The notes under the pieces are model-generated. The model saw only the letters and a list, made by a program, of their open reading frames with translations. It searched no databases and had not been told where the DNA came from. Positions 1,567 to 35,934 of a stretch of 64,000 bases of DNA are shown here, piece after piece; positions within the stretch are counted from its first letter, which is position 1, and each line of letters starts with the position of its first letter. Location: the NCBI RefSeq assembly GCF_026210795.1, contig NC_089431.1, forward strand, positions 3,658,001-3,722,000, written 5' to 3'. A program made the translations under genes and the position numbers. This DNA comes from Rhizophagus irregularis. Its lineage: Eukaryota.

Positions 1567-1818
1567 ATTCTTCTATTACTGTATATTACAAAAGAAAGTA
1601 CAAAAGAAAGTACAATGTAATCAAAATAAAATTTTTAAAATAAAGTATTGTGAATATGTTCGACAATCAATAATGTACTAAGCTACATCAATTCACATGA
1701 CGAAAAATCGACTATAGGTCGTTATTATAAATATGATTGATCATTGATGTCATTTTAATTTGTAATACGATTAGTTATCATCTTCTTCCTTCTTTTTTTT
1801 TTTATTTAAAAATTTAAA

Positions 1819-4058: not shown

Positions 4059-4440
4059 GATCGCACTATTTTAATTGCAATTTTAAGCTTTTATTTATGA
4101 AAGGTGACTAACGCTTATTTCTTAATCGCACCCAATGATTATTGTGTGGCGCAACTGCTATCTTATTTCATCATGGATCCCCTTTTTTTTCTACCAAAAC
4201 TTTTATATATAAAGAATATCATTTTTTAATTTTTTTCGTCTAAATATTTGTAGATACTACACTTGCTGTTGATGATAAATTGATGTTTTCATAAGCATAG
4301 AAAGCTTCTGCTTAACTAGAAAGCTAATAATCATAAAGCAAAGCTTTATTTCAGTTCGAATATTATATTTTTATTTCTTTGAATTTTCTTATTCTATGGC
4401 GTTGGGCATCGTTAGCCTGTCATTTGGTCCAGCTTCTTGT

Positions 4441-8258: not shown

Positions 8259-8849
8259 TCATAATTGAGATTGCATTTGCAAATTATTTAAAGAAAAATA
8301 ATTTAGTTGTCGCATTTCTAAAATATTCGAAGTAGTAGTAATTAGAGTATTCGGAGTTATTGGGGAATTAGCCGGTACAGAAATGACTCTGTACTCAAAT
8401 TTAAAGATTTCACAAGTATTTGAAGTATTTTCTTGAAGAGAGTCGTAAGTAACAGTATTAAATGTATACGAATAATTGTCCGGAATAGATTGTGTTGGGA
8501 TAGATTGTGGTAAACAGTGATTCGAAGTTGGAATAAAATCAAAATTATTCGTAAATTGTTCATTAGACGGTATAGGCGTTATGGGAGTTTGTTGGTAATT
8601 TTGATTAGAAGGGTTATCGAAAGTCGAATATTCTTCATCATCCATAGCGAAAAGTTCGTTAATAAAATCGCAATACGTATTATCACAATTATTACCATTA
8701 GTATTTAATGAAGGATTTTGCGCTTGAATATCGGTTGTTTGTGGTTGTACACCACTTATATTACCGTAATAGTTGTAAAAATCGTTAATGAGTTCAGTAA
8801 GTTCAGATTCGTTTAAGAATCCATCTTGCAAAAGATTATTGTTTTCCAT
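8259..8849 (-). CDS. Hypothetical N/Q/S/T/P-rich protein, 196 aa, single exon
   Basis: Long ATG-initiated ORF with an A-rich start context in very AT-rich DNA; no recognisable domain. Confidence 0.55.
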   Translation of the reverse strand: MENNNLLQDGFLNESELTELINDFYNYYGNISGVQPQTTDIQAQNPSLNTNGNNCDNTYCDFINELFAMDDEEYSTFDNPSNQNYQQTPITPIPSNEQFTNNFDFIPTSNHCLPQSIPTQSIPDNYSYTFNTVTYDSLQENTSNTCEIFKFEYRVISVPANSPITPNTLITTTSNILEMRQLNYFSLNNLQMQSQL

Positions 8850-11800
8850 TTTTTCTACTTGGTGAATTGAAAAAAAGAGTAAAGAAATTTTTGGAATTTT
8901 TTTTTTAAAAAAAAAGATCTTTGTTAAAGAGAAATAATAATATTTGCGTATGTGCGAAAAATAAATACAATTTTTTTTTAAAAAAGTTATACTGTACAGA
9001 TAAAAGTTTTTCTGAAGATTTCTTCGTCGGTCGAAAACTTGGATATTTATAAAAAATGGAACTTTACAAAATAGAAAGAATGGACAATTATTAGATGTGA
9101 CTATACAGGAGGTGACCCAATCATTTAAAATTTTATAGTTTTATCAGATAAACTTTAAATTTTTGCATAACTCCGTGTAGTGTGGCCAATGATTTCCTTT
9201 TTAAATAAATACAATATTACAATAATATAATCATTACATTTTTTAACGATGAATTCCTATTTTACTCAATAATTGATAATTTTTCTAACTAAGAAATGAA
9301 ACGAATGAACTAAAACGGTCGATCTTGCCTAAAGTTGATTTTCAACATGATGAAACATTAAACACATTATGAGACATTTCTCCTGGATACAATCATATCA
9401 ACCCAGTATCTCGGAATATAAATCGGTGTAATAATAACAATGTATCCGGAGCTTGTTTTCTTGTTTCGAACAATCTACAATATATTGTTATTTCTTTTTC
9501 CTTTTTCTTTCTCTTTTTAATATTATCTTCTCTCTTTTTTTCCGCTAAATTTCAAACTCATTTCTTTGTGTTTTAATATTACTTTTCTTCATTTCCTTAT
9601 TAGTTTATTTTTTTTTCTAAAAAGCTAAAAATAAATTTATATATCATATTAAAGCTTTATTTAGGTTGTAATGTGATTAGAAAAAAATATATTTTACCTT
9701 CAATAAATTGTTGATCCATCATTAATCTATTTTTATATTGTAGCACAGAACTTTCTTTCGATGATCATCCAATTAAAAAAAGAAATTTAGACCATGAACG
9801 ATAAATTTAAAAAAAAAATGTGATTGAGAAAAAAAAAATGTGTGTGTTATTGGATTAATACCTTTTTTCATTTAAATGGAAATGAAGTCATTTAATTTTT
9901 ATTAATGACGCATATATTCATGGATTTAAGATCTTATTCAATTTATGAAATTTAATTTATTTATTTATTTATTTATTTATAAAAAAAAAAAAAATTATTA
10001 TTATTATTTTCAAGGATTGTTCTTTAAAAAAAAAATTTTTTTTTTTTTAAAAAAAAAGAAATTCTATTTAATTGGCGGAGTATAAGGAGGTCATAATGTC
10101 TTACCTTTGAATAATAAATAAGGGGGGAGGGAGATAAAGTTTCAACTAAAAAGGTTATAGTTATCAAATTAAAGATATTAATTTTTTTTAATGAGAAACA
10201 AGTAAAATAAAAAAGAGAGTCTCTTTTTTAATGAATTATTATTCAAATATATTTACTCAAATTAAAGTTTTTATTTTTCAATGTATCATTTTTACTTTTT
10301 CGTTATAATGCGCAGAAAAATAAACTGTCCATTCCGTCCAAATATGTTAAAGGAGACGTCAATCGTTTTCTTATTTTTAAACGCTCCCTGCAGAAATTTA
10401 TGTATGACCGCATATTCATGTTTCACATGAAATTTGACGCAGCAAATATTTTATCAAAATAATTTTTTTTTTTTTTTTTTTACGGAACTCGTTCAAAATC
10501 TTAGTTATCTTAATTCGATTCATCCATTAATCCTATTATTGTATTTTTTTTTTAATTTTTTCTTTTTCTAAAAAAATACGTTTGTTTAACCATATGAATA
10601 ATTGTATTTATTATATATGGTTTATTAATTTTTGAAAATTCTTTTTTTTTCATGGATTTTTTTGGCGAAATTTCCATATTTGGTGTTATAATGTAAAATT
10701 TTTTGTGCTAATCAAATTATTTGTTATTGTTCAGTGTACACTGACCGACATGATTGACAACTAATTTGTAAGAGCACGGGTACACTGTTTACATTAATTT
10801 AATATTTTGTATCATTTTTTTTTTCGGGTGAAAAAAATAAACAAATATAAGAATAACCATTACTTTTTCAAAGTGTTATATTTTTTACAGACGGTTATGT
10901 TCAATAATTATTATATATGATTATTTTTTTTATTTTTTTTATTTTTTTAAAGAAAAAATATTTTTTTTCATTCGTATTTGTTTTCATTCATATTTACAAT
11001 ATGAAAAATTGAAAAATTGAAATTCCTTTATATGTATGCCCTTAATATCGAATTATTTATTATTTAGAAAAATGTTAATGTTTCAATTTACCATAATATT
11101 CGGTCCCAAGGTTGTTGAGTCACGTGATATTCTATTGTTTTCGACTGCGCCGCATAATACAATGTAAGTTGTAGTTTGTGAAACATGTTTCAAGAAATTT
11201 GGGTCTTTGGACTAATATAAAATGGGTTGGAAAATTTTTCTTTTGAACAAATTATAGAAGTTTCTATACAGAAAAATGAATATTATATAATTGATATAAT
11301 TGATATAAAAATTGAAACATTTATATTAACATTATTAAAATTTCTTTTTTAAGTCAAACGATACAAAAACTCAAAACTCAAATGAAAGATATGTAAGAAA
11401 TAAAACAAATGTATAACCTTAAAGGAAATTAACCAATTAAAGACGATTCTTAATCAATTAAAACAATGTTATTTCCGATTTTGTCAATACATATATCAGA
11501 TACTCGTAGCAATAAACATCATTTTATAAAGGTAGGACATTTAATATTATTTCAACTTGATTTTTTTTTTGTTTAACGTTCGAAAAAGTTTGAAGGGGGA
11601 GGGGAGAGTTTTCATTAAACAAACTAAGCGAAATAAACATAAATTTCAGAAAATTCGGAAGATCGTAATTTAAATTTGAAAAAACATAATAAATGTGATA
11701 AATTAAGATTTTTTTTTTTAAAAAAAAAATAAAGGGGTTAAACAAACAATCAAATTGGAACGGTCTAAGATATCATATGTTTCAATTCGCAAACATCTTT

Positions 11801-13870
11801 AATTATTCAAAGATGTCAATCTACCGGTAAACAATTTAATCATTTTTTAAATTTTATTTATTTTATTGTTGTCGTTAAAGATTATTTTTTATTGTAAAAA
11901 AAAATTTTAATTTTAATTTATTTTTAAACAATTGTTTACTACTAGATCAATTTCATTATCAAGAAAATAACGTAATATTTATTCAGAATTTAATTTAATA
12001 AAAAGAATGTTTTGAAAATGTTTCAGTTTGAAGACAATAATGAAAAAAATTAAGCTTTAGTACAATGGGCTGATATACCAAAATTTTTATTATATCATAA
12101 TTATTTAATTTGAATTTTTGGCCTTAATAAAGAACAAAGGTTCTATTTGCATATTTGCATATTCTAAAGGTTGAAATGAAAAATTACAGTAAATGATGTT
12201 TTATTTAATTAGTATTAAATTATTTAATTATTCCGTTAATTTAATTAAATTTATGTTTTTAGATTATTTTACGAAAGAAATCGAATTAGGAATTACTCGA
12301 TATATTGTAGTTCGAATATATAGGAACACGTAATCAAGTACGATTGTTGATTAATTTTGGCCATAACTATGAAGATCTTAATTCCGGGAAAATTACTGAT
12401 ATAATTAATAGATGTTAGATGGAGTTATAGTTCGATAATTAGGTGACCAATACTGAAGTTGTTTCAACTTGATTGTTTGTTTACGTCCGAAAAGTTTGAG
12501 GGGGAGGGGGGTTTTCATTAAACAAACTAAGCGAAATATAAACATAAATTTCAGAAAATTTCATGAAGATCGTAATTTAAATTTGAAGGGATATTTAAAA
12601 CATATATGCTGTGATAAGATTTTTTTAAAAAAATAAAGGGGTTAAACAAACAATCAAGTTGGAACGGTCTATCAATTTGCAAAATCTTTAATTATTCAAG
12701 ATGTTCAATCTACCGGTAAACAATTTAATCATTTTTTAAAATTTATTTATTATATTGTCGTCGTTAAAGATTATTTTTTTTATTGTAAGAAAATTTTAAT
12801 TTTAATTTATTTTTAAACAATTATTGTTTACTACTAGATCAATTTCATTATCAAGAAAATAACGTAATATTTATTCGAAATTTAATTAATCAATTATTGT
12901 CTATATTAATAAAAAGAATGTTTTGAGAATGTTTCAGTTTGAAGACAATAATGAAAAAAATTAAACTTTAGTACAATGGGCTTATATATCAAAATTTTTA
13001 TTATATCATCATTATTTAATTTGAATTTTTGGCCTTAATAAAGAACAAATGTTCTATTTGCATATTTGCATATTCTAAAAAAAGGCTAAAGATTTATAAA
13101 GGAAAATGTTTGAAATGAACATTACAGCAATAAATGATGTTTTATTTAATAAGTATTAACTTATTTAATTATTCCGTTAATTTAATTAAATTTGTTTTTT
13201 TAGATTATTTTACGAAAGAAATCGAATTAGATATACTGGGAACACATGATCGGGTACAATTGTTGATTAATTTTGGCCATAACTATGAAGATCTTAATTC
13301 CGGCTGAAGTTACAATAGCTGTTAGATGGAGTTATAGTTCGATCATTAAGTGACCAATACTGGGGTTGTCTCAACTTGATTGTTTGTTTAACGTCCGAAA
13401 AGTTTGAGGGAGAAGGGCGTTTTCATTAAACAAACTAAGCGAAATAAACATAAATTTCAGAAAATTTCAGAAGATCGTAATTTAAATTTGATGTATTTCA
13501 ATTCGCAATATCTTTAATTATTCAAGGTGTTAATCTACTGGCAAACAATTTAATCATCAAATAAAGAACAAAAGGTTCTATTTGCATATATTGAAAGGCT
13601 AAAGGTTTATAAAGGAAAAAATGTTTGAAATGAAAATTACAGTAAATGATGTTTTATTTAATTAGTATTAACTTATTCAATTATTCCGTTAATTTAATTA
13701 AATTTATGTTTCTTTAGAAAGAAATCGAATTAGAAATTACACAGTGAATTTCGAGATGCTAGGAACACGTGATCAAGTACAATTGTTGATTAATTTTGGC
13801 CATAACTATGAAGATCTTAATTCCGGCTGAAGTTACAATAGCTGTTTGATGGAGTTATAGTTCGATCATT

Positions 13871-15881
13871 TTTTTTTTTTTTTTTTTTTTTTTTTGGTAA
13901 CCGTATAAGTCATTTTATTAGTAAATATAACGCATCATAATACATAATAATTATAACATTAATACATTGAAATTCAAAGTTTTTCAACGATGAACCCCTC
14001 CATACCAAAGCCATGGGTTATCTAACCATGGCGCGGATAAACGTAACCAAAGATTTACTAAACTACTAATACTAAAAAAAAAAATTTAACTATGTATTGA
14101 CTAAAATTTTCTATCTATTTGTTAGAGCTATTGTTAAAATCTAAACGACTAAGTACATTGATGTGTCGTCTACTAACAACGGCAAATTTATACATTTGAC
14201 TAAATTGGTATGATGCTAAGCTAATCTAATCTAAAAACTCTGGAACTACTAAACTAATACGTTACCTTTTCTTTATAATTTTTTGCTATTTTTGTTGTAT
14301 TTAAATCTTTTAATATGTTTTTACTATTTTCTATATTTTTATTTGAAAAATTTGTTTGGGTTATGAAACTTCCTTCGTGGCTACCATTGATCATGTCTTC
14401 GTGATGGTGCGGAATGTCTATATGAAAAATCTTGTTGTTCCCACTCCCTACGAAAACCATTTGTCTTGGGACATAGCTCTTGTAAGAATATCATCTGTTA
14501 CCTTCTTGTAATTCGCCATTATCGTCGATGTAGTCGTTTTCTTTCTTGATCCATAATCCCCTTCCGATATCATATATCTTTATGGATTTATTAATTGCCG
14601 ACATCAAATCTGATTGTTTATTGAAATACAAAATAATAAATCTTTTCCCTTTGACTCTGATAATTTTTCCAAAGAAAGCGTGAAACGCTTTCACCATTTC
14701 TTTTATAACCAAAATATCATCGTCCTGTATATCAACTTCCAATCTTTTAAGCGCTTGCCAATGAAACTTCTCTTTAAATTTACTGTATGGTAAATGCGAA
14801 TCGGCCATTCTAATGAAGTAAGTTCTGTCATTATTTCTTGTTAATGACACGTTAACGCCGCCCTCTGAGTATATCTTTTCGTAAGCCTTGCTGAAGCGCA
14901 GCGTCGTTTTAACGGTCTTATACTTATGACATCATTTAAAATTAATGAATTCAACTACTCCCACGTTTGCATTTAGTAATCCTAAAATTTCCTCATCACT
15001 CCAATACGCAGGTATGTCGTAAAAAGTAATGTCACGTGACTTGTCGGCAAAATGTTTATCCAAATAATCTTTATCTTTATCTCCTTTATCGATCACTAAA
15101 TCGGTGATCATTCCATTTTTAGCAACTGCTCGCGCCCTTTTTCTCTTTTTGTTGGGGCGTTTTTTCTTTTTCTGCGTCTTGTTATCTATTTCCATATTCG
15201 TCACTTGACTCGTTGGCTGTTCCTCTTTTTTTTCTAGCGCTTTAATTTTTTCCCATAAACTATTGTTCGTCTCATTTTTCTCTAATATTATTCGTTCTTT
15301 TGCTATGACATCCGCTTCTAAATTTCTAATTTTATTTTCTAGTTCTCGTATGACTAATCCGTTTATCAAAGCACTATCCGCACTATTTTCCACTTTTTTT
15401 CCCAAATCGTCAAATTTTTTTTTTAATTCTGCATACTGTGTTTCTATTCGTTGAAGTGATACCGCCGCAGTATATTCACGGCGAAGTAGAAATTCTATAA
15501 CATTATCAAACTGGACTCCTGCAAATTTTGTTAGGAATAAAGATAAAAAATAATACACCGCTGGTACTTTCGTCTCCGGTTTGTTGAGGCGTATAGGTAT
15601 CTTTCCCAGTTTTGAAACAGAAGTACTTTTTATTATCATTTTTTCCAAGTCTATATATTCTTCAATTTTTTTACACTTCACTATTTCTACCAAAAATCTA
15701 TCATAAATGTCATGAAACGGGTTGAAAAAAGCTTTCATACATGTCTTCTTGTTATTGATAACCCACGTCGAGACCTCTTCTTCGTTTTCTATTAATGTTG
15801 TATCCATATTATCCATGTAACTATAATGTATTTTTGTTAATAAAAATTGGTTTAAGAGATTGTCGGAAAGAGTTTTCAATC
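13871..15881 (-). mobile_element. Retroposon 1: ORF1-only non-autonomous non-LTR element (~2.0 kb)
   Basis: Poly(T) 13869-13895 on +; AATAAA 18 nt before poly(A); TSD atagttcgatcatt at 13857-13870 and 15882-15895; empty site in the neighbouring array unit at 13334-13347. Confidence 0.9.
14254..15816 (-). pseudogene. Single ~520-codon coiled-coil + basic tract + tandem RRM-like (LINE ORF1p-like) ORF broken by two in-frame TGA
   Basis: ORFs 14932-15879, 14491-14850 and 14254-14460 are in one frame, separated only by TGA at 14932-14934 and 14491-14493. First ATG at 15816. Motif SRDITFYDIPAYWSDEEIL. Confidence 0.8.
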
Positions 15882-17329
15882 ATAGTTCGATCATTAAGTG
15901 ACCAATACTGGAGTTGTCTCAACTTGATTGTTTGTTTAACGTCCGAAAAGTTTGAGGGAGAAGGGCGTTTTCATTAAACAAACTAAGCGAAATAAACATA
16001 AATTTCAGAAAATTTCAGAAGATCGTAATTTAAATTTGATGTATTTCAATTCGCAACATCTTTAATTATTCAAGGTGTTAATCTACTGGCAAACAATTTA
16101 ATCATCAAATAAAGAACAAAAGGTTCTATTTGCATATATTGAAAGGCTAAAGGTTTATAAAGGAAAAAATGGTTGAAATGAAAATGACAGTAAATGATGT
16201 TTTATTTAATTAGTATTAACTTATTCAATTATTCCGTTAATTTAATTAAATTTATGTTCTTTAGATTATTTTACGAAAGAAATCGAATTAGAAATTACAC
16301 AGTGAATTTCGATATGCTAGGAACACGTGATCAAGTACAATTGTTGATTAATTTTGGCCATAACTATGATGATCTTAATTCCGGCTGAAGTTACAATAGC
16401 TGTTAGATGGAAGTACAGTCATTTGGTGACCAATACTGGGGTTGTTTCAACTTGATTGCTTGTTTAACGTCGGCGTTTTCATTATCAAATTAAGCGAAAT
16501 AAACATAAATTTCAGAAAATTTCAGAAGGTCGTAATTTAAATTTGAAGGGGCATTTAAACATATATGTTGTTATATCATGTTTATCAAAATTTAGATTTT
16601 AAAAAAAAGGGGGTTAAACAAGTGTTAAACAAACAATCAAATTGGAATGGTTTAAGATATGTGTTTCAATCCGCAACGTCTTTAAGGAATTTCGAGGTGT
16701 CAATCTACCGGTAAACAATTTTATGGCGTTAAAAATTTTTTTTTTTTTGTAAGAAAATTAAGAAAATTTTAATTTTAATTTATATAATTGTTGATCCAGT
16801 TTATTATCAGAAAGATATAACATAACATCCATCTGTATTTACTTAATCATTTATTTTCTATATTATTAATATTCATATTTGAAAATGTTTCGGTTGAACT
16901 ATCAGTTATTGGATAATCTAACAGCTATTAATTATATCAGTAACTTCAGCTGTAATTAAGATTTTTTTTATTTTATTTTTACTTTAGAAAGGCAAATGGT
17001 ATGGAAATATACAATAAATTCCGGAAGTAACTGAACATAAAGAGACGTAAAATCTATCTAAAGAAATCCAATAAAGTATATCCCATCAAGGACCCACCTT
17101 CGTTTTTTATAAAATAAAAAAAAAGCTAAACACAAACTAACAGTATTAGTATGATAGCTAAAAACACACTGGAGAATAAAAAAGTCTAATCTAAAATCCA
17201 GCCCGTATTAGTCTTTCACACATTGGTGCTACGCGCGAACGAAAAATCAGCCGGATTGATTAAGATCTATTTTTATTTTTATTTTTATTTTTATTTTTAC
17301 TTCAAGAAAGGCAAAATCTGCCGATACAA

Positions 17330-17650
17330 TGCCGGAATTAAGATCTACTAGTTATGGCCAACAATTGTACTTGATCACGTGTTCCCAGTATACCGAAATT
17401 CACTGTGTAATTTCTAATTCGATTTCTTTCGTAAAATAATCTAAAGAAACATAAATTTAATCAAATTAACGGAATAATTAAATAATTAAATACTATTGAA
17501 TAAAACATCATTTACTTTTCACATTTTTTCCTATAAAATTAGTACAATGAGCTGATACTATATCAAATTTTTATTATATTTTCTCATTATTTAATTTGAA
17601 TTTTTGCCCTCAATAAAGAACAAAAGGTTTTATTTGCATATTGAAAAAGG
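17330..17650 (-). repeat. Inverted copy of part of the tandem-array unit
   Basis: gccggaattaagatct...gttatggcca...ttgatcacgtgttcccag...tttctaattcgatttctttcgtaaaataatctaaag is the reverse complement of the unit at ~16250-16390. Confidence 0.8.
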
Positions 17651-19059
17651 ATAATCTCTTCATTTTATATTGAGGTTATAAAAATTCAAAATTTCGATTA
17701 GGAATATGCAGGATTGTATGGAAATCAGCATTAATTCCTATTGGTCACCGCAGTATTCCTAACCGAACTATACTAACTCAGTCATTGAATGGAGTCGAAG
17801 AAATATAATGGATTTAATTATATCGAACTTTTGTACCTAATAAACCGATGGATTCTATAAATCCGGTTTATCAAATTTCACCGTGTAATACAACTTTAAA
17901 ATAATGTTAGTAAATAATAGTATGTTATGATTTCATAAAACTAACTAATATTTAATTTTTATTTAATTTAGAAATAAAGAATATGTACCAAGGAATTTAA
18001 TGTTTATATCAACAACTTCATATATCATTATATTTTATATTTTTATATTATTTTACATCGTGTACCTTTAATTATATTTAACACAATAAATGAAAAAATA
18101 GTATAAATATCATGACTATTTTTGTTAACTAGCAAAAATCCCAGCGTAACTTACGATTAGCATGAAATATTTTTTACTTAGACACAATTGATTATTACAA
18201 GATTTCAAGTAGTAATTTTCGTGAAATTTATTTTGAATCGTAATTTACGATTAATAATTATTTGTAAGATCTTATACATTTTCTTTATATTTATAAACAT
18301 GTATGTGAACTAGATTTTAAACCGGGATCATGTTTAAATTAGTCGTGTATTTGCTATATAATTGTGAAGCTTGGCTAATCCCTATAAAAATTTTATTTCG
18401 TGTTTTTATTCCATGTTATTTCCGTAAACTGAATGTATCATATTCACGGAGTTTTTACAGAAATTACGGTAACAATATATATAAACTTTTGAAATAAAAA
18501 AATATATATATAAACGTGATACTATGTTTATACTTTAGGCACCGAAAACTATATATGGCAAACATTTAGACTTTTAGATCAATGATGTTTCATCGTTCGA
18601 GTCATACTTATTTACAAGGGGAGATAAAATTGGACGTGTTTCTAACCTGATGTCAACAGAAGCATCCATACAAACCTACGCAAACCATCTAAAGAAGCTT
18701 TCATCGAAGAGGGTAACAAAATTTTTAGTTATATTAGTTTTAGGCTCTTATTATTTTAGAGAAAATTATTAAATCCACAAAAACAGCGTATAACATAAAA
18801 AATACAAAAAATTTCTTTTTTCTGACTCTAGTGATAAATATTAGTTAGTAGTGTGGCCCTAGTCTTAGCATAGTATAGTCCTTATTAGTAGTATTAGCTT
18901 CGGTTAATACATCCATAATTGATATTGAGTTAGTAGATAGTTTTTATACTATGTATTTTTATTATGTAATTTTGCTTTTTATTTTTTGTAAAATGAAAAT
19001 TATAAATAAAAATGCGCGTTACTAACAAAAAAAAAAAAACTATATATGACGAAATATAT

Positions 19060-19195
19060 TTGGGATTTGATATATAGTTTCGGAATTCTGCCAAATCCAA
19101 AATCCCAAACCCACTATTGTCGAAATTTCAAACAGTTGACAAAATCCCGAAATCCCAAACCATTGCCGAATCTCAAATCGTTGCCAAAATTTTAT
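19060..19195. repeat. Iterated aaatccc(a/g)aa motifs, probable Mutator-like terminus remnant
   Basis: aaatcccaaac/aaatcccgaaatcccaaac repeats similar to the subterminal motifs of the element at 53533. Confidence 0.4.
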
Positions 19196-20049
19196 TTTTA
19201 TTTTTTTTATTCCTAATTTTATTTTTCGATAAGAAAATTGCCTTTTTTGAATTCGTGTAACGTCATATGCCAATAGTAATTTAGTCAGCAGTTTATCTCG
19301 ATTCTTTCTGATCATTTAATTCTGGCGTGACCAATAGTGCAATAGCGGTTTGAGGATTGCGTCAACAATTATATGCCTAGACGCTAAGTTAAGTTTAGAG
19401 TTTATTAATTTGCATTTTTTATTCTTTAAATTAATTTTTTGAATTTCTGAGTTGAATTCTTGCTTTTTAACAAATATCAAAATAATTATACTAAGCTTAT
19501 TGACCCAGCTAAGTAGCAAAAGTTTGCTGTGTACTTCACATACTGTATTTCAAAAGTTTATATTGCAGTTACAAATCGATCAATTTAATATATAACAGTA
19601 TTTGATGTAACTATCTTAAAATACTATTTTTAATCAATAAACTTCACCGCTTAAAGCAATAAAAAAAAATGTGGTGGCTCGACTTTCATATTGGTTGGAC
19701 AGTATAAAATAAAATTTTTCGTTTTTGTATCCTGGAAATTCTGAATTTAATTTTATTTATAATTTTTTAAAAGAATTTAAGAAAGTAATAATTAAAAATG
19801 ACATCATTATAATAATTATAGTAAATCACTATTCAGTGATTAAATCACGCATTATCTATCGATGATTATTAGTTAACTTTTAAGTTCCCATAAAGTTAAT
19901 CCATTTATGATTCAATTCAAAGTGATAAATGATAACAAATAATTTATTAATATTCAATAACATGTAATGTATAATAATATATAATCCGACTATATAAAGT
20001 ACTATGTAATAAATAAATATTCTAAAAAAAAAGAGATGTTTTTATATAT

Positions 20050-20880
20050 TATAATTCAAAGAGCGTTGATATCAAGATCAAATTCCTTGGTGACGTATCC
20101 TATATTGATAAATTTTTTTTAACCCAAAATTATTTATATATAGTGTTTACCTTTATTATGGCGTTGATCAGAACTAATATTAATATCCAATTCAATTTCT
20201 TTTGTAAAAAAAACATAAAGATCAATTAAAATTATGACGAATATGTACATTGTTAAAATGTAATATTATTTATCGTTATTTTCATTTTCAAGAGATTTCT
20301 TTTTTTAATATTTTGGTCTTAATAGTAATTTTTTTTTAAAAAAAAATAATAAAAATCTCGTTTTTGATGTATAAATTTATAATTATCTTTTTTTTTTGAT
20401 TTATATTATGTATTTAAAAGAATATGACTAAACTTATTCTAAGGATAAGTATTAAAGTACAATAGGCTATTTTTAATTCTGCTCACATTTTTTTGAATTA
20501 AAAGATAAAATGATTTACTAACTCTTAAAGATTAAATTCGCTGGGAGTAACCAAGGTTTTAATGACAATTGAAAAATCATATCCTCCAAAAATGTCTTTT
20601 TTATAGATACCTAAAAATTATACTTAAAAAATTTAATAAATTAAAAATTTATTTCATTATTAAAATTTCTTACTTGAAATATTTCCGGTTAAATATTTAA
20701 TTTATTGTGGTAATATTTCCATCATCTAAATTTTAAGCTAATTTTTATGATAATTTTGATGAAAATTTATTAATGGTTTATATTTTATTTTTCAAAAGAA
20801 TTTATTTTGTGCAACGCGTCAATTTTACAATACTAACGAATCATCTAACCATTTTTATAGAAAGTTGTACTATTCATGGA
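20050..20880 (-). pseudogene. Heavily decayed BTB gene relic with downstream YVTKEFDLDIN-type micro-exon
   Basis: The minus strand gives PEIFQ before a GT donor (~20670) and KTLVTPSEFNL*ELVNH (~20510-20560). 19800-20200 resembles 46090-46440. Confidence 0.5.
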
Positions 20881-21819
20881 TGAAAACATTTATCCTAGAG
20901 AAATTTATTTGATTGTTTTTCATAACCTAAAATAATTCTTGCCTACATAACAAATTTACTACCAAATGATGGACCACAATGAAGGTCACACATTATTTAG
21001 AAAATGACGCAAGACGTCATGAATTACTTTATTCATGCAACATGACAAAAAAATGTTTAGTTATATTGATTTTAGTATACGAAAAATTTTGCAGTGCTTG
21101 TACAGTACATCCTAGGGATTTACTATACAAATTTCAAAAAGAATTTGCTTTCACTTATGTTTCATCCTTATCAGTACTAAATAATCACATTAATTCAGGC
21201 TTTCTCTCACCAATTACAGTATGTGACCAACAGACCAGACGGTTAGATATAATAGATAATGAAAACATTTTTTTTTCTTTTAACGTAAAAAAATATTCGA
21301 GATCCACAAAATGAAAAAATTAATATGTTATTATACTTCTAAATAAAGGAGTTTTTTAAGGAGCAGCTTTAACTACCTAATGACGAAATTGAATTTTGTT
21401 ATAATGAAACATTTTTCTCCCAGTGAAGAATGAGAGTTACTAGCTAATTGATTTTTGATTTTTGATTTTTGATTACTATTTTATTTTGGTTAAGAATTCT
21501 TTATTTATTTATTTATTTATTTTTTTAAAAAAAAGATTTATATAGTAAGAATAAAAAAAATAATTTTTATAACAAAAATGTTTAATTGATAATAAAGACT
21601 AAAATAAATGATAAAAAATAAATGTATAATTAATTGAGTGATAATAAAATGAAAAAAAATTACATAATTGATAACTAATAATAAAAATTAAAAAAAAGAT
21701 TAATTAGATTGATTGTAATTCATATGGTTTATACGAACATTTCTTTTAACATTTTCCTTATTTCGTGGCTAAATATTTATCGGAGAAGATGAGGAATATA
21801 TCATATTAAAAAAAAAATT

Positions 21820-22225
21820 TGTCAAATAAAATATTAACAAATTCATATTTTTTGAATATCTTACTTGTCGTGTTTTGGTCGTATGCGACATTTTTCGTTT
21901 AAACCTTTTTCTTTTTTCCTACGGATCGTTATCTTTATCATGATTTCTAGGTGTTGTGTGTTAGTAGTTAAATCCATTTTTTTTCCTATGTACCTTTCTT
22001 CGATTTCTTGCCTCAATATCTTCTAGTAATTTGTCTATTTGAAATTTTGCTTCATCAATCCTCTTCCCAGAAGAACTATTTCCAACTCTATCCTTAATTA
22101 TATTAATTTCAATTTGTACTGGATTTGTATTTTTAATATATGTGTACCAATCCTTTCAGCAATGGTTACGTCCTTTACGATCAATTAATTTACCAACATA
22201 AATATTTTAAGCAAGACGTTCGATA
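21820..22225 (-). pseudogene. Possible decayed KH-domain gene fragment
   Basis: The minus strand reads YVGKLIDRKGRN then, after a frameshift, IAERIGTHIKNTNPVQIEI...IDEAKFQIDKLL, resembling a type I KH pattern with a mutated GxxG loop. Confidence 0.35.
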
Positions 22226-23539
22226 AATCAGCTGATGATCACAAAGTCACGAATAAATTCGTTAAGAACTTTCATTTATAGATTCTTGCCGAAAATTTAA
22301 AATACAGAAATTAAATAAAATACTCTGTTTGTATAAATTTCACAAAAAAAATACTTTATCGATTATTTAGTCTCAAAATTACTATTTTATTATCATTTGT
22401 GATTACTTTTATACTGTACAAATTACTGATAATATTCTTTATGATTGTTTAAAGATTCAATAAATTAATACAAGTATATAACTAAACAAGTTGCGTCATT
22501 ATTAGGTGAAAAATATATAAAAAGGAAATTATTTATGAATGAACTCAGTTATAATATAATAGTCAATATATCAATTATGTTTTACGAAAGAAAAAAACCA
22601 ATAATTATTGTTGATATACAGTATATACAGTATATAAAATTAATAAATTAAAATTTCCATTCACTTTAACAATAACATTACATTTTATTGATTTGCTAAT
22701 TTCCTTTAGTGCTTCCAAAATAATATAGTATTTAAACTCAAATCTTCATTTGATTAATCACACAAATATGTTTTCAGAGTATAGTAACTTAATAATGCCA
22801 TAAATTTTATGCTTTAATTAGTTAGCAGGTAATAATTATTATTCTTAATGTACTACTATCTAATAGACAAATTAGTAAGAAAAGAAATTATTTCTAAAAT
22901 ATTAAAAAAATTATAATTTCTCAATTCATAACAATTTAGTTACACTTTGTTACCAAACGTTAATATAAATGAACAAGGTTTTTCATTCATACTTCTTACA
23001 TAGCATGCGAAAATTAATATAAAGGGTTAAAATATTTCCTAAGAAAAGCAAAAAAACATAACGGCAAAAACATAAAAAAGGTACATGAATGAGTAAATAT
23101 GCTTATTTTTTTTCCAAAAACAAATTAAATTGAAACTTTATTACTTGCGCCATGCTTTGACAATTCGACATATAGTAAAAGATGATGACAACGCAACAAT
23201 CGAGCAATAGTAATCATAATTATCACGTTCAAATTCAAGAATTCTAAAGAGGAAATACACAAGGAATATTAGAAGGTTTAATGTTAAATTTGAAAATGTG
23301 ACTACTAAGTCAAAAAAAATATAAATGATGTAATTTATTATTTTATTATGATTTTATAATATACAGTACATATAGTAATTCATCCTATTTATTTTTGGTT
23401 TAATTTATAAAAAACTTTATTAATCATAATAAATATATTCCAATAAAATACACATACTGTAATAATGATAAATAAAATAAATAGTAAATAATAGATACAA
23501 ATAAAGACATTTATATTCTGAATATTTGTAAATTTTCTT

Positions 23540-25206
23540 CCTTAGTTCTCTTTATCTACATGAACGAATTAAAGTAAATTGTTAATATTATTAGTAAAAT
23601 TAACCATACAGAAAGCAAATTGATATACTAAACGAGTACCTAGATTGAGATTAGTGAAATCTATTGCTTCTATGGATTCTAGAAAATAAAAAACAATTGT
23701 ATATTAAAAGTATTTCATTACCTGAATATTCTACATCAGCTTTGTTATCAATAGCATTTTTTGGTTCTGGAAGATTTTTAAAGTCTAAAAGTCTACTCGT
23801 GTAAATTGCTTGAGGATTTGTAGTATATGAAAGAGTAGTACCGTTATATGGTAATGAAGTAGAAGTAAACTTTTTATTAATTCTTTTTGCTTCTTTGACT
23901 TGCTTATTGATTTCACTATCATCACTATTATCATCATCATCACTATCATCATCATCATCGCTATCATCACTATCATCTAATTCATCATCTAAATTATCTA
24001 CTAACTTATATAACTCTTGTGCTTTAGGTCGTTTTAAAGGATCAGCATCCCAACATTGTTTAATTATGTCCAAAATTAGTTGTGGAATTTTATAATTAGA
24101 TTTTGGCCTAAGCCCTTGACAAATGCTAATAGCTAAGATTTTATCATGAGCAATATCATGATAAGGAGGAAGCCCTGTACAGACTTCATATGCAATAATT
24201 CCAAATGCATAAATATCACTTTCTTGAGTATATTCTCTTCCTCTTAAAACTTCAGGTGCTACATAAGGTAATACTCCGTATACTTTATTTTCATATTCAT
24301 TTTGAGAAGATTTTACATTTGCTGGTTGGCATAATCCTAAATCAGTAATAATAGTATAATTACCATCTTTTAACATATTACCACAATGAACATCATGATG
24401 AATTAATCCTTTTTCATGAATAGAATTGAGGCCATCTGCAATATTTTTTAAATCATTCAACTTATCTTTGAATTAAATGTATTATTTAAATATTGTCTTA
24501 AACTACCATCTTTTACATATTCTATTACCATCATGAAATTATTAGATTCTGGATCTTTGGTAATGCCAAAACATTCAGCTACACAGTGTGAAACAATCTT
24601 ATTATATGATTCAATCTACATAATAATAATAAATAATAGTAAGTTTAACATTTATAATGGAATAGTAGTTTACAAATAAGTAACCTACTTCTTTTAAAAA
24701 TTCGGATGTAATATCCTGAGAATTATGTAAGCATTTAAAACAACTTGAAAATTTTCACTATCCTCAATCCAATATTTGTTTCTATTCCATTGATTATTTA
24801 CAGAATCCCATTTATTTATACATCCATCCTTCCAAATTGCTTTATAAATAGTTCCAAATCCTCCTTTAGCCAAATATTCAACATTTTCAAATCTATCATA
24901 TTCAATCCACTCTAAAATTTCACTAGATATTTTAGCTTTAAGTTGTGATTTTTGAATAAATTTATCAACTTTATCATTTCCACTAGTCCAATTTTTGAAA
25001 TTTTGTTGAAATTTACATTGAAACCAATAATTGGTAATTTGAGGCTGCTTACATTCTTTGCATAAACCATTCTGTTTATAACATTCTTTTAATTCATTAT
25101 CTAATATTAGCTTATCAATTAACAATATTTGTTCATCTGTTAATCTCCAATAGTTAAAATCTTTTATTTGCTCAATTACATCATCACTGAGCTTAAATTC
25201 TTCCAT
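23540..25206 (-). pseudogene. TKL-type protein kinase gene with two frameshifts and an Asp-rich microsatellite insert
   Basis: WTSGN, EWIEYDRF, LAKGGFGTIYKAIW; frameshift at VVL-KCLHNS (~24735); second shift near 24465; HHDVHCGN, DLG, YVAPE; poly-D at ~23917-23990. Confidence 0.85.
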
Positions 25207-25243
25207 ATTAGATTACTGGTCAATTTATGTAGAAGAGGATTAG

Positions 25244-27525
25244 TTTTTTTTTTTTTTTTTTTTCCACTCGCGTAAACGTGAAACTCCTTTATTAAATTTG
25301 TAAAAAGCGCACCATTTACAAAAGCAACCTCAAAGAATCACATTGAAGTAACCAGTGCAAGCACTGATTCAACCTCTCCATACCGGGCGCTTCGGCCTAC
25401 CGCTCGGTCAACCCACGATCCCCTTTAAATACTACACAACTACAAGAAAAACTATCTACCTATAAGTTATATTTACCTATATACACTATACAATGTCTAT
25501 ATTAAGTGAAACTACTTCTTTTTAACTAATCTACATCTACCTCCTCTATCTCGTCCGTGACTACCTGGTTTTCCTCCTCTTTTGTTATTTGATTCTGTAC
25601 TTACCACCACTTGATCTTCTTCATCTTCATCACTATCACTTTCTATTCCTTCTTCCTCCATTACACGGTCATCTTGTTTCTTTCTTAAGCGTTTCCGTTG
25701 TTCTACTTCTTCTTTTGCTTCTTTTAATACCTTCTTGTAAGTATCAATCATCCCATCGAGTCGCTTTACATATTCTGGAGTAAAAATCTTTTCTTTCTTT
25801 TTTTCCTTTTTTTCACCTAGCCTCTTGCTACATGTTTCATTTATTGATTCATACTCGTGCATTTCTAATGGTGATACCTGTTTAATATTTTCGTTGGATT
25901 TCGTTTCTTGCTCTTTTTCATTTTCAATCTTATCCAAGATTTTTTGATTTTCGTTCACTTTGTTTTGAGCTTCATCCACTTTCTTTTGTAACGTATCACG
26001 TTCCGCCCTTCCTTCTTCCATCTTCTTTTTTCTTTCTTTTAAATCCGTAACTAGCCCAGCATATCCGTATCTACATCGTTCAATCCACTTTTCATCATCT
26101 TTTTCTTCATGTGACAACTCTTTATTTATTTCTTCTCTTAAATCCAATACTATGTCTACAACTTTCTCTGGCGAAGCGTAATCTTTTATTGAAGTCGACG
26201 TGATATTTTGTGGAACTTCATCTAACAAATTTTTCCTATATTTATTTACTACGTCGATCACCTCATCTGTACTAACGTTATCTATAATTGTTGACGTGGC
26301 CACGGTTTGTTTTTTTGTTGCAGGCTGTGCTTTTCCATTATTTCATGGTGTAGTGCTGACCAAATCACTACGTGAGCCCCTTATTGGGAGGTCTACCGGT
26401 TGATTGCCCAAACCCTTACCATGAATAATCCAAGTATCGTCTCCTCTTTTATCTAAAGCCTTAGCTGCGTCCAATTGATCTTTGTCTTTAAAGTATGCAA
26501 GGAATACTAACTTTTTTCCAAAACGCGCCATTTTGCCGTACTCAAAAGAGTAATTTTTTCTAGCTACGTCTTGATAATAACTTGAACGAATTATTTTGTA
26601 TGCCTTCCACTTACATTTTTCTTTTATAGATTTAACTGTACTTTGTCCTGGAAACCAACGAACTTGCATCGCGGTTTGTCTCTTTTCACTATTTCCAAAT
26701 AAAAGTTGTACCTTCCATGTTTCTCTAACAAACTCACTTTCGTATTCCTCAAATAAGTTGATTTCAGCTCTTACCGATTGGTATTTGTAGTGCTTTTTAA
26801 TCCTTATTCTATGGACATTTCCTATATTTTTAATGGCTGAAATAACTTCACTTTCACTATACCGCGCTAGTATATCGTAAAACATTATGTCACGTGATGT
26901 TGCACATACGCCCCTTGAATTTTTTATGATCGGCTGTTGATCGACCGGTTCAGGTAGTATGATTTCCTTAACATCTTTTTTACCATGTTCTTTCTTTTTT
27001 GCATTTTTTCTTTGTTCGTTCTGACTATTGATTGGTTCTTTAAACTTACTATCATTTACTCTTTTTGGTACTTCTTCATGTGGCTGATTTTTTTGCTGCG
27101 CCTGGCGCAGCCATGAACGAAGCTGACATTTTCGTTCCCTATCCTTTTAACGTTATTATCATATTCTTTATATGCATATCTCAAGCAACCTCGTAATAGT
27201 ATTTCCACTGTTTCTCCTCTTATTCCCGTAGTTTCACTTATTTCGGTTAAAACTTTGTGTGTCCGTAGTGTTCTGAAGAAAATTTTATCAAGCTTGTTTT
27301 GTAACTTTTCTGACGAGCTGGTTTTTGCATTTTTGAAATTTTTCTTCACCAAAGTGCTGACTTCTTTTAGTATTTTTTCGTCGAACTCATCCTGGTGTAG
27401 GTATGACTCCATTTCCTTTACTTTTTGACAGTATTTTTATTAGAAAATGAAGTAATTTTTATATTTTTCTTCCCGTGAATTTTTTGGTCTGAATGATCGC
27501 CAGAGAGAGTTCTCCTAAATGGATC
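25244..27525 (-). mobile_element. Retroposon 2: ORF1-only non-autonomous non-LTR element (~2.3 kb)
   Basis: Poly(T) 25244-25263; AATAAA 24 nt before poly(A); TSD agaggattag(t)8 starting at 25234 and at 27526-27543, followed by an A run (TTTT/AA site). Confidence 0.9.
25512..27412 (-). pseudogene. Single ~633-codon ORF1p-like protein (basic linker, tandem RRM-like, coiled coil, acidic tract, RGG end) with one frameshift and one TGA
   Basis: Restoring one base near 27145 joins ORF 27056-27412 to an open frame running into SRDIMFYDILARYSESEVI (ORF 26343-26885). TGA 26343-26345 is in frame with ORF 25512-26303. Confidence 0.8.
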
Positions 27526-27690
27526 AGAGGATTAGTTTTTTTTAAAAAAAAAAAATTTACGCTTTTATATGTTGCACTGCAGTGATCAACAAATTTTAAA
27601 TCAGCTGATGATCACAAAATAAAATATTGTTACACAAAAAGCAAACTACAAGTGATAATTATATTTTATAAAATTTTTAATCTAGCAATT

Positions 27691-28090
27691 ATTATTGCTG
27701 TTTTCTAATTACTGTGATCTAGCATTATTTAATAAAAAAAAAATTTTTTGAGAAAATATGTGAAAATAAAAATTTTATTGCATTTTCAAATAAAGGAGGT
27801 ATAATTATAAGCTGAAAATTACAATTTTAAAAAAAAATTTTCAATTTTTAAATAAGTTTACTTATAAGTAACTTTTTAAATTTTGTGTAACAAATCGTTT
27901 TTTAAAAAGTTATTTATAAGCAAACTTATTTAAAGATTGAAAATTTTTTCTTAAAATTATAATTTTAGCTTATAATCATACCTCCTTTATTTGAAAACGC
28001 AATAAAATTTTTATTTTCACATGTTTTCTCAAAAATTTTTTTTTTTTATTAAATAATAATAGATCACAGTAATTAGAAAACAGCAATAAT
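27691..28090. repeat. Foldback inverted repeat with ~190-bp arms and ~20-bp loop
   Basis: attattgctgttttctaattactgtgatcta...actttttaaa pairs with tttaaaaagt...tagatcacagtaattagaaaacagcaataat. Confidence 0.9.
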
Positions 28091-28749
28091 ACACTCTGTT
28101 ATTGATAGTGGTATTCTTTTATGATTATATTATTGTGATCCAACTAAAAGTTATTTAATCATTAAATAAATGGAAGTATATAATTCAATTATTTAATCTT
28201 TAAAGCAAGTAATTGGGAAATTTCAACAGTTGATAAAAAAATTGTAATGAAACCAGAAAATTAAAATTTTATTTTAACATCTTTTTATATAACATAAACT
28301 TTTATTGATAAATGATTTGTTTCTTCTTTTAGTGCTTCCAAAAAAAATATATTATTTAAACTTTTTTTGAGTTTTTGGCTAATGACATAAATGTTTCTAA
28401 AATATAGTAACTCAATAAATTTAGTGCTCAAATATTGTGAATAAAACAAAAATAAATTTATTTCTAATAAATAAAATTTTAAAATATCATAATTTGCTTA
28501 GATAAAGATAAATAAATAATATAATTAAAATTTATTCCAAAAGTAATAAAACATATATTAAAAAATTTCTTGCAATTATGATGTAGCGGCATGTTCAAAG
28601 TATAGAATTCTAAGGAGGGACACAACAAAGAATATTAAAGGATTAAATAAATTGAAATTTGAACGAAGTTGTAGTTGTGGCGCAGAATATTACTGTTAAT
28701 AACTGAAGTAACGTTCGTGTATTAAGATTTTCACGATATAATAATTATA

Positions 28750-34835: not shown

Positions 34836-35934
34836 TTTTTTTTAAAAAAAAAAATGTTGTCATGAGAGAAAAAGAAAATTGACACCTTATATGTAAATTT
34901 TATGTTACTCAAAATCGGAAAAAGTTTTCCCTTTTTTGTAGAACGAACTTTGCATTAAATCTAAAAAATGCAAAAATGAATGGGACCAAATATAATTTGT
35001 AGATCTTTTCTTTTTTTTAGATAATGCCAACCAGAGTTTATCAACAAGCATTATGCTTCTCTGACCAGAATTAAAGCTACTAATAGTAAATGTGCGCCGA
35101 TCACTTTATGTATTTGCTCGGGAAATTCTGTAAAAATAATTTAAACCCGAGGATTGAGATTAAATTATGAATACGATACTAATACGACTTTATAAATAAA
35201 CTAATTTTTATTTTCATTGAATACAGACAGAACTATTAAACATCGATTTTGCCTTTAAAATAAATCATGATCATGTCCCTGGCCCTTGAACATAGGGTCT
35301 CTGGTCCACGGGCAAAGATTTGTATACAATGCAACGTTTGCTGAAACCTCAGATTTAGCGACTTTAACACTTTTGGCATGTGACTATCATGTGACTATAG
35401 GGTAAATTGCTAGTGGCATTTTTTTTCATTTTGGCTGTCCAGTTTCTACCTCACTACTTTATGTTGGCTACATGGAGGTAATATAAAACCTTATTTGTTT
35501 TTAATTTTAAAAAATACGAATATTTTTTTCTAAAAAAATTTATGAAATTATAAATTCTATCTTTTCACTTCATATCTTCTATATATCAGAGATAATGAAT
35601 GTTGTGACAATTTATTAATTTTAAAAATACGAATTTATTTTAAATCCATTAATGAATATTTTCGAAAATAAAACTGCATAAATTTACCTAATATTTATAA
35701 GTTTTTTTTAATGCATTGTAAAAAATTTATATTATTAAAATATATAGTACGAATTCATTGTAAATTTATTGTGCAATTTATTATCTATACAATATATTAC
35801 TGAAATGCATTATAATAATATAATAAGATACTCGTTATTGTTAATTTATTGATATATAGCAAAAATGTATGATAAAAAATTCTACATGTATTTAAATTTG
35901 AATAGTAAATAAATTATGTAATTAAATATAAAAT

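What the first reader, a model, noticed from the sequence alone, without database searches (positions are those of the whole stretch)
13857..27543. A family of full-length, protein-coding retroposons that lack reverse transcriptase (ORF1-only, HAL1-like)
Seen: two independent minus-strand insertions (13871-15881 and 25244-27525). Each has poly(A), AATAAA, a 14-18 bp TSD and one intronless ORF that fills most of the element. The proteins are homologous but very divergent: SRDITFYDIPAYWSDEEIL/SRDIMFYDILARYSESEVI, HKYKTV/YKYQSV, KEKFHWQALK/KEKCKWKAYK, GKIIRVKGKRFIILYF/GKMARFGKKLVFLAYF. There is no room or motif for RT (YxDD) or APE endonuclease. Established: LINE ORF1p combines coiled coil and RRM, and ORF1-only non-autonomous elements (HAL1) are known in animals. 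Inference: an old, diversified lineage of ORF1-only parasites mobilised in trans by an autonomous LINE; I do not know of a description in AM fungi.
Basis: partly seen in the sequence, partly recalled or inferred. Interest (0 to 1): 0.92.

Follow-up and report, generated by a model that had tools for sequence, protein, structure and literature searches.

The report
Enzyme-less retroposon families in mycorrhizal fungus
Two broken copies of 2-kb jumping genes in the plant-symbiotic fungus Rhizophagus each carry one gene for a predicted RNA-binding protein and no copying enzyme, belong to large families, and likely borrow that enzyme from another mobile element, a known way of life that I did not find described for these fungi.

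Summary
Both insertions are real: poly(A) tails, 14- and 18-bp target duplications, T/A-junction sites, and an empty-site twin for E1 in the flanking repeat array. Both ORFs are intronless but broken (three TGA stops, two frameshifts). They share only a 170-residue core, predicted to be two tandem RRMs. Each has dozens of relatives, nearly all from Rhizophagus irregularis, including four uninterrupted 633-634-aa gene models, 91-96% alike, on different contigs. No listed relative carries reverse transcriptase, endonuclease or RNase H. New: both elements share a 3' tail motif, gene models of other copies run from the ORF into that tail, and one E2-type model ends in the E1-type tail. Best reading: ORF1-only non-autonomous retroposons (HAL1/HeT-A way of life), moved by an unidentified LINE (0.7). 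Not shown: the partner LINE, descent of the protein from a LINE ORF1, and shared termini across copies; no genome was held. New member of a known kind.

The parts
13857..13870 (.). E1 target-site duplication, 3' copy (14 bp)
13871..13895 (-). E1 poly(A) tail (27-T run from 13869; first 2 T lie in the TSD)
13914..13919 (-). E1 AATAAA
13964..14006 (-). E1 copy of the shared 3' tail motif (GGTATGGAGRGGTT, predicted hairpin, TTCAATGT)
14010..14032 (-). E1 predicted hairpin just upstream of the tail motif (7-bp stem); also present in the tail read by P0100 and P0116
14381..15816 (-). E1 ORF, intronless, broken (TGA 14934-14932 and 14493-14491, frameshift between 14452 and 14488); relatives 482 aa: helical N-domain, long helices, basic linker, RRM-RRM, short tail
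14530..15039 (-). E1 tandem-RRM core (predicted fold), the only part shared with E2
15817..15881 (-). E1 5' leader, 65 nt
15882..15895 (.). E1 target-site duplication, 5' copy; site reads ATCATT|AAGT on the + strand
13334..13347 (.). Empty-site twin of the E1 target in the neighbouring unit of a ~520-bp tandem array (single 14-mer joining both flanks)
   Evidence: same junction as a loose end in run X19
25234..25251 (.). E2 target-site duplication, 3' copy (18 bp, 8 of them T)
25244..25263 (-). E2 poly(A) tail (20-T run, 8 within the TSD)
25288..25293 (-). E2 AATAAA
25340..25384 (-). E2 copy of the shared 3' tail motif with a predicted hairpin at the same place
25512..27412 (-). E2 ORF, intronless, broken (frameshift between 27071 and 27128, TGA 26345-26343); relatives 633-634 aa: N-domain, basic linker, RRM-RRM, long charged C-terminal region ending in an RG-rich stretch
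26420..26897 (-). E2 tandem-RRM core
27413..27525 (-). E2 5' leader, 113 nt
27526..27543 (.). E2 target-site duplication, 5' copy; site is a T8|A12 junction

Best explanation
E1 and E2 are dead copies of two multicopy families of poly(A)-tailed, TSD-flanked retroposons in Rhizophagus that encode one predicted tandem-RRM protein and no reverse transcriptase, and that likely move by borrowing the endonuclease and reverse transcriptase of an autonomous LINE. Shown: insertion hallmarks, empty site for E1, one intronless ORF, multicopy families with uninterrupted members, no RT in any listed relative, a shared 3' tail. Predicted: two RRMs (RNA binding) and helical oligomerisation segments. Inferred: an intact source copy is transcribed and polyadenylated; its protein coats its own RNA like an ORF1p; the conserved 3' tail plus poly(A) recruits a LINE ORF2p, which nicks T/A junctions and copies the RNA by target-primed reverse transcription, leaving 14-18-bp duplications; new copies then decay, with stops at Arg codons as expected from CpG methylation. 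Inferred and untested: descent from a LINE by loss of ORF2.
For: TSD + poly(A) + T|A sites; E1 empty-site twin. Families: 27 clusters for E1 and 41 for E2 among about 8,000 candidates scored each (one cluster in each may be this locus itself); four 633-634-aa models, 91.4-96.1% identical, on contigs of four different lengths. No RT: 0 of 49 hits of 309-2000 aa carry an RT, APE or RNase H family, longest 719 aa; 0 of 145 further relatives do, longest of the best 150 is 687 aa. Tail follows ORF in other copies: gene models P0020, P0100, P0116 end in the E1 tail, P0076 in the E1 3' UTR, P0040 and P0048 in the E2 tail. Summed contig depth in DNA run X10 is about 3,750-4,200 over the E1 tail against 230-280 per contig and 490-3,100 over the ORF, as expected for 3'-anchored copies. 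Fold: pLDDT 85, pTM 0.76; Foldseek top hits nucleolin and PABP RRM1-2 (E 2e-5, 5e-5); VIA Z 8.7, rmsd 4.2, 158 aligned to PABP RRM1-2. Selection on the ORF: 21 of 39 listed differences at third codon positions, 18 of 39 synonymous against 19% expected. Gene models fused to unrelated neighbours (kinase, Crinkler N-domain, HSP20) fit scattered sites. The class is known: HeT-A, HAL1, Ag-Sponge (PMC5786205). RT-bearing LINEs are reported in R. irregularis (PMC11075540).
Against: No autonomous partner and no RT-linked homologue of the ORF was reached (searches found nothing; no genome). Missing RT in protein records is weak, because ORF1 and ORF2 of a LINE are normally separate proteins. The read-through gene models are spliced predictions, so the DNA distance from ORF to tail is unknown, and P0040/P0048 and P0076/P0116 may each be one locus. 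Termini and TSDs of other copies were not seen (searches showed none among the rows kept). No CCHC knuckle and two RRMs rather than one, so the protein fits neither ORF1 type I nor II of PMC4120745; best fold matches are host RRM proteins. The tail pattern was drawn from these two elements, and its hairpins are modest (z -1.9 to -3.1 on hand-picked windows; z -0.5 and -1.5 on wider windows). The 39 differences are 39 of 352 rows, best-supported first and not independent. Depth is no copy number by the tool's own warning.
Confidence: 0.7

Rival explanations
1. They are non-autonomous retroposons, but the protein is not a former LINE ORF1: a host tandem-RRM gene was captured and joined to a LINE-recognised 3' tail.
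For: Top fold matches are cellular RRM1-2 proteins; no Pfam ORF1 family and no CCHC knuckle; N- and C-terminal regions of E1 and E2 do not align.
Against: Identity to the cellular RRM structures is only 4-17%; the core has 301 clusters at 50% identity, all named ones from Glomeraceae, which fits a fast-evolving mobile protein; tandem RRMs are common in LINE ORF1s; weak Atlas leads include an RRM + zf-CCHC Mucoromycota cluster (score 0.76, lead only).
Confidence: 0.12
2. They are ordinary processed pseudogenes of an expanded host gene family of RRM proteins, copied passively by LINE machinery.
For: AM fungi hold very large host gene families (PMC8647823); runs guessed to be RNA hold contigs of one diverged member; both window copies are dead.
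Against: No intron-sized insertion in any relative's contig among the joints shown; two unrelated-looking members retroposed within 12 kb; a shared 3' tail despite 28% protein identity; several near-identical uninterrupted copies on different contigs.
Confidence: 0.1
3. They are prematurely polyadenylated or internally deleted copies of normal two-ORF LINEs, not self-propagating lineages.
For: The partner was not found, so this is not excluded; ORF2 would be a separate protein and invisible to my protein searches.
Against: The ORF is followed by a 250-490-nt UTR with a conserved tail, not by an endonuclease start; other copies show the same order; the pattern recurs in two deeply split lineages (tree, 100/100 support).
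Confidence: 0.08

Closest known systems
HAL1 (half-L1) of mammals (PMC5753468 and PMC5786205, passages seen; Bao and Jurka 2010 not available)
   Same: One ORF1-like gene, no ORF2, poly(A) tail, TSD, T/A-junction targets, presumed trans-mobilisation.
   Different: Protein has two predicted RRMs and no match to the L1 ORF1p family; parent LINE unknown; at least two lineages at about 28% identity share only the core and a 3' tail.
ORF1-present non-autonomous LINEs as a class: HeT-A (Jockey), Ag-Sponge (CR1) (PMC5786205, passage seen)
   Same: Protein-coding, RT-less, bipartite layout; Jockey-type ORF1s also hold one or two RRMs (PMC4120745).
   Different: No CCHC knuckles; not telomeric here; fungal host; link to a LINE clade not shown.
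EKA family of Blumeria (ORF1 of the Satine and Kryze LINEs; PMC4641428, passages seen)
   Same: A large fungal family of LINE-ORF1-type genes that is annotated as host genes.
   Different: EKA ORF1s carry zf-CCHC and were tied to RT-RNase H ORF2s; described as truncated and recruited effectors, not as TSD-flanked ORF1-only retroposons in the passages seen.
SINEs with LINE-derived 3' tails (PMC5786205)
   Same: Short conserved 3' tail as the likely recognition signal for a borrowed RT.
   Different: These elements code for a protein; no tRNA head and no Rfam match in the tails.

Membership tests
ORF1-only non-autonomous LINE (HAL1/HeT-A/Ag-Sponge class) | Inserted by target-primed reverse transcription: poly(A) tail and TSD | tested here: met
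   empty-site twin for E1 only
ORF1-only non-autonomous LINE (HAL1/HeT-A/Ag-Sponge class) | One intronless ORF, no RT or endonuclease inside the element | tested here: met
ORF1-only non-autonomous LINE (HAL1/HeT-A/Ag-Sponge class) | Multicopy and dispersed, with coding-competent members | tested here: met
   (protein records and contig depth; DNA of the other copies not seen)
ORF1-only non-autonomous LINE (HAL1/HeT-A/Ag-Sponge class) | Other copies have the same termini, own TSDs and no ORF2 | tested here: inconclusive
   6 gene models among 252 proteins compared run into the tail or 3' UTR; termini not seen
ORF1-only non-autonomous LINE (HAL1/HeT-A/Ag-Sponge class) | Protein homologous to the ORF1 of an autonomous LINE | tested here: inconclusive
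   RRM-RRM fold; sister clade found but no DNA context for it
ORF1-only non-autonomous LINE (HAL1/HeT-A/Ag-Sponge class) | 3' end shared with an RT-encoding partner | tested here: inconclusive
   tail shared by E1 and E2; collection scans gave 0 and 5 chance hits
HAL1 in the strict sense (L1-clade derivative, type II ORF1) | Coiled coil, single RRM and CTD (Transposase_22, PF02994) | tested here: not met
   two RRMs predicted; no PF02994 hit; definition from PMC4120745
Type I ORF1 (I, Jockey, R1, Tad1 clades) | [quoted passage not shown] | tested here: not met
   no CCHC pattern in 114 + 140 proteins; RRMs present
Autonomous LINE | ORF2 with endonuclease and RT | tested here: not met
Processed pseudogene of a host gene | Intron-containing parent gene | not testable with these tools
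   no genome held; no sign of introns in the joints shown
tRNA-derived SINE | tRNA-like head, no protein | tested here: not met
   0 tRNA genes in the window; 1.4-1.9-kb ORFs

The most novel reading that the evidence does not exclude
Glomeraceae harbour an ancient, self-sustaining radiation of RT-less, protein-coding retroposons: one clade, cut off from any cognate LINE since before Rhizophagus species split (long branch, support 1.0), that has rebuilt its protein around a zinc-knuckle-free RRM-RRM core, swaps 3' recognition tails between lineages (E2-type ORF with E1-type tail, P0100) to follow whichever LINE is active, and accounts for many 'hypothetical' orphan genes in AM fungal annotations.
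Probability: 0.3. Interest if true: 0.7.

Novelty: new member of a known kind. Interest (0 to 1): 0.45.

Why it matters
About two-thirds of R. irregularis repeats were unclassified, and the curation described in PMC11075540 leaned on profiles for RT, transposase and recombinase domains; RT-less protein-coding retroposons would slip past such profiles and be counted as orphan host genes. This gives two families, a Pfam-less tandem-RRM domain with 301 clusters, and a short tail motif by which the driving LINE can be sought in one genome search. E2 sits about 45 bp upstream of a probable kinase start codon, so the families may also alter expression of the expanded kinase repertoire (inference). 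If tail swapping holds, it is a compact case of modular evolution in a parasite of a parasite.

Tried and rejected
No whole genome is held, so copy counts, termini and the partner could not be read directly. Tail-pattern scans: 0 matches in viral contigs; 5 in metagenome contigs, none with a family protein and none looking like the tail. Profile scans for loci: core alignment, 37 and 119 pattern hits, none confirmed; sister-clade alignment, 29 and 108, none confirmed; these collections are prokaryotic or viral, so the blanks say little. Pfam: nothing above cut-off for the element proteins; PDB sequence search: 2 matches, E about 1. Rfam on both tails: 2 + 2 matches, E 3.5-9.2, chance. ESM Atlas: best scores 0.81 and 0.77, leads only. 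L1 ORF1p was not among the fold-search rows shown; that is no exclusion. The wide VIA search never ran. Full-length fold of the E1 family was poor (pLDDT 56, pTM 0.32) and was not searched. No listed holder run is on record as RNA; three runs guessed to be RNA hold contigs of one diverged E1-family member (depth 244, 85 and under 5): a hint, not evidence of expression. Logan contigs of 2,317 and 2,323 nt carrying E2-type proteins are close to E2's length: noted, not tested. LTR reading of the ~530-bp repeats flanking E1 rejected: they are units of a tandem array with further copies and an empty site. Empty site for E2 not found in the window. Other long A/T runs in the window gave no convincing TSD pair, and no third family member lies in the window. 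CpG observed/expected is not low in E1 (1.40) or E2 (1.09; window 1.08), so methylation-driven decay rests only on the three stops. Dropped rows: 4 short ENA members of the P0032 cluster unrelated in sequence; 1 of 40 listed differences outside the ORF; 151 of 301 profile hits were not listed and not examined. Literature: 10 searches, top listings only, showed no description of ORF1-only elements in AM fungi; word searches in PMC11075540, PMC8647823 and PMC11952901 gave 0 hits for ORF1 and non-autonomous; one supplement searched, 0 hits for the motif, ORF1 or HAL1. Repbase, Dfam and the papers' repeat libraries were not seen and may already hold these families as unclassified, LINE or SINE entries.
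Full report
What was checked. The two stretches were read on the minus strand and translated. No whole genome is held for this window, so the family had to be studied through protein collections and public contigs. The host is Rhizophagus irregularis or a close relative: every named hit of both proteins is from that species, and the window's genes are kinases, BTB-BACK and Sel1 repeats.

The insertions are real. E1 (13871-15881) ends in a 27-T run and is flanked by a 14-bp direct repeat; E2 (25252-27525) ends in a 20-T run and is flanked by an 18-bp repeat with 8 T. E1 lies in a tandem array of ~520-bp units; the neighbouring unit carries the 14-mer once, with E1's left flank before it and E1's right flank after it, which is the empty site. 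Both targets are T|A junctions (ATCATT|AAGT; T8|A12), the kind of site cut by APE-type LINE endonucleases (own knowledge). For E2 the 10 informative TSD bases are expected 0.004 times in 5 kb, but no empty site was found. AATAAA lies 18-24 nt before each tail.

The ORFs are intronless and dead. Against uninterrupted relatives, E1 aligns at 89% over 456 residues and E2 at 77% and 66% in two frames, without intron-sized gaps. E1 has two TGA stops and a frameshift, E2 one of each. Close relatives have Arg at all three stops, and four other contigs show the sense codon at 14934, so the lesions are private to these copies. Six-frame motif scans gave only one YIDD in E1, which is not conserved in the family. 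There is no RT, endonuclease or RNase H.

The protein. E1 and E2 share one region of about 170 residues (BLASTP E 2e-11; profile probability 99.4%, nothing else aligned). Folded from nine relatives it gives a confident model (pLDDT 85, pTM 0.76) with two alpha/beta units; Foldseek finds 81 chains at E up to 0.001, headed by nucleolin and PABP RRM1-2, and VIA-align gives Z 8.7, rmsd 4.2 over 158 residues to PABP RRM1-2. Two UniRef entries of the E2 family are named 'RRM domain-containing protein'. Around the core the lineages differ: E1 has long helices before it (low-confidence model), E2 a long charged region after it. No CCHC knuckle was found in 114 + 140 proteins. By the scheme in PMC4120745 (passages) this is neither type I (RRM + CCHC) nor type II (coiled coil, one RRM, CTD).

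The families. E1 has 27 and E2 41 clusters at 90% identity among about 8,000 candidates each (P0005 and P0031 may be this locus). One cluster holds four models of 633-634 aa, 91.4-96.1% identical, on contigs of four different lengths in one accession series; that they come from one genome is my inference from the series. Contig depth in DNA run X10 is 2-12 times the per-contig level over the E1 ORF and 15-17 times over its 3' tail (the tool warns that depth is no copy number). Of 39 listed differences in the E1 ORF, 21 fall on third codon positions (p 0.007) and 18 are synonymous against 19% expected (p 0.0001); the rows are a best-supported subset of 352 and not independent, so this only suggests selection on source copies. 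A profile of the core finds 301 clusters at 50% identity; the named ones among the 20 looked up are from R. irregularis, R. clarus, R. diaphanus and Glomus cerebriforme.

Is there an ORF2 in the relatives? None of 49 hits of 309-2000 aa carries an RT-type family; the longest is 719 aa, and the only families are a kinase and a Crinkler N-domain fused in by gene prediction. None of 145 further relatives does. This is weak alone, since ORF2 would be a separate protein. Stronger: six gene models of other copies, among 252 proteins compared, run from the ORF into sequence that matches the elements' 3' UTRs: P0020, P0100 and P0116 into the E1 tail, P0076 into the E1 proximal UTR, P0040 and P0048 into the E2 tail. 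They are spliced predictions and some may be the same locus, so they show order, not distance.

A shared tail. Though the elements have no other DNA similarity, both carry GGTATGGAGRGGTT, a predicted hairpin and TTCAATGT about 70-120 nt before the poly(A); the motif occurs nowhere else in the window even with two mismatches. The pattern was drawn from these two sequences, and the folding z-scores are modest. It matches no Rfam family. P0100 is an E2-lineage protein (tree; 44% to P0032) whose model ends in 20 of 23 residues of the E1 tail read in frame. Either tails are exchanged between lineages, or the model was spliced onto a neighbouring insertion; I could not tell which.

The missing link. 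The profile also reaches a sister clade (profile probability 99.7%), set off by a long branch with FastTree support 1.0 (50 cores, midpoint root for drawing only), many of whose members end in a short leucine-rich helix. I recall proteins of this kind as ORF1s of RT-bearing LINEs in these fungi; that is memory, and no call confirmed it: none has an RT domain, their clusters are mostly singletons, and no locus could be fetched. Tail scans found no partner. RT-bearing LINEs of several clades are reported in R. irregularis (PMC11075540 and PMC8647823, passages).

Mechanism and verdict. The best reading (0.7) is ORF1-only non-autonomous retroposons: an intact copy makes a polyadenylated RNA and an RRM-RRM protein that likely packages it, and a LINE ORF2p borrowed in trans, likely recruited by the tail and poly(A), inserts it at T/A junctions. 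Insertion hallmarks, coding content, multicopy state and the shared tail are shown; RNA binding is predicted; packaging, partner and descent are inferred. Rivals: captured host RRM gene on a LINE tail (0.12), processed pseudogenes (0.10), truncated two-ORF LINEs (0.08). The way of life is known from HAL1, HeT-A and Ag-Sponge (PMC5786205 and PMC5753468, passages); it works like HAL1 but fails the strict HAL1 test on protein type. Ten literature searches, read as listings, and word searches in three AM-fungal TE papers showed no description in these fungi; Repbase, Dfam and the papers' repeat libraries were not seen. Unchecked notes of this scan report like elements in other fungi, which makes the kind look widespread rather than surprising. 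New member of a known kind; interest 0.45.

Noticed in passing
window 25206 and 23651-25212 (-): E2's poly(A) end lies about 45 bp upstream of a probable start codon of a Tyr/Ser/Thr-kinase gene on the same strand, separating it from its upstream region.
   Followed up: partly
window 11547-16900: Irregular tandem array of ~520-920-bp units, 73-96% alike, with an inverted fragment at 17331-17516; E1 sits in one unit. Function not examined.
   Followed up: partly
window 27690-28091: A ~400-bp near-palindrome (90% self-complementary) 150 bp upstream of E2, MITE-like.
   Followed up: no
window 30659-62600 (-) and 1783-2730 (+): Six or seven copies of a BTB-BACK gene, several followed by coding tandem repeats of 24, 33 or 39 bp.
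   Followed up: no
window 55157-57433 (+): 758-aa open frame with 13 Sel1 repeats.
   Followed up: no
window 10463-10481, 10036-10061, 20329-20346, 34836-34858, 43927-43945: Adjacent T-run/A-run junctions are common between genes here, so E2's type of target is abundant; the 19-T run at 10463 has no TSD partner.
   Followed up: partly
proteins P0007, P0021, P0024, P0114: Public gene models fuse the E1-family ORF to a Crinkler N-domain, HSP20, a kinase or an unknown domain; likely annotation chimeras with neighbouring genes, possibly real fusions.
   Followed up: partly
window 8259-9140 (-): 293-aa Asn/Gln/Thr-rich open frame with no Pfam match.
   Followed up: no
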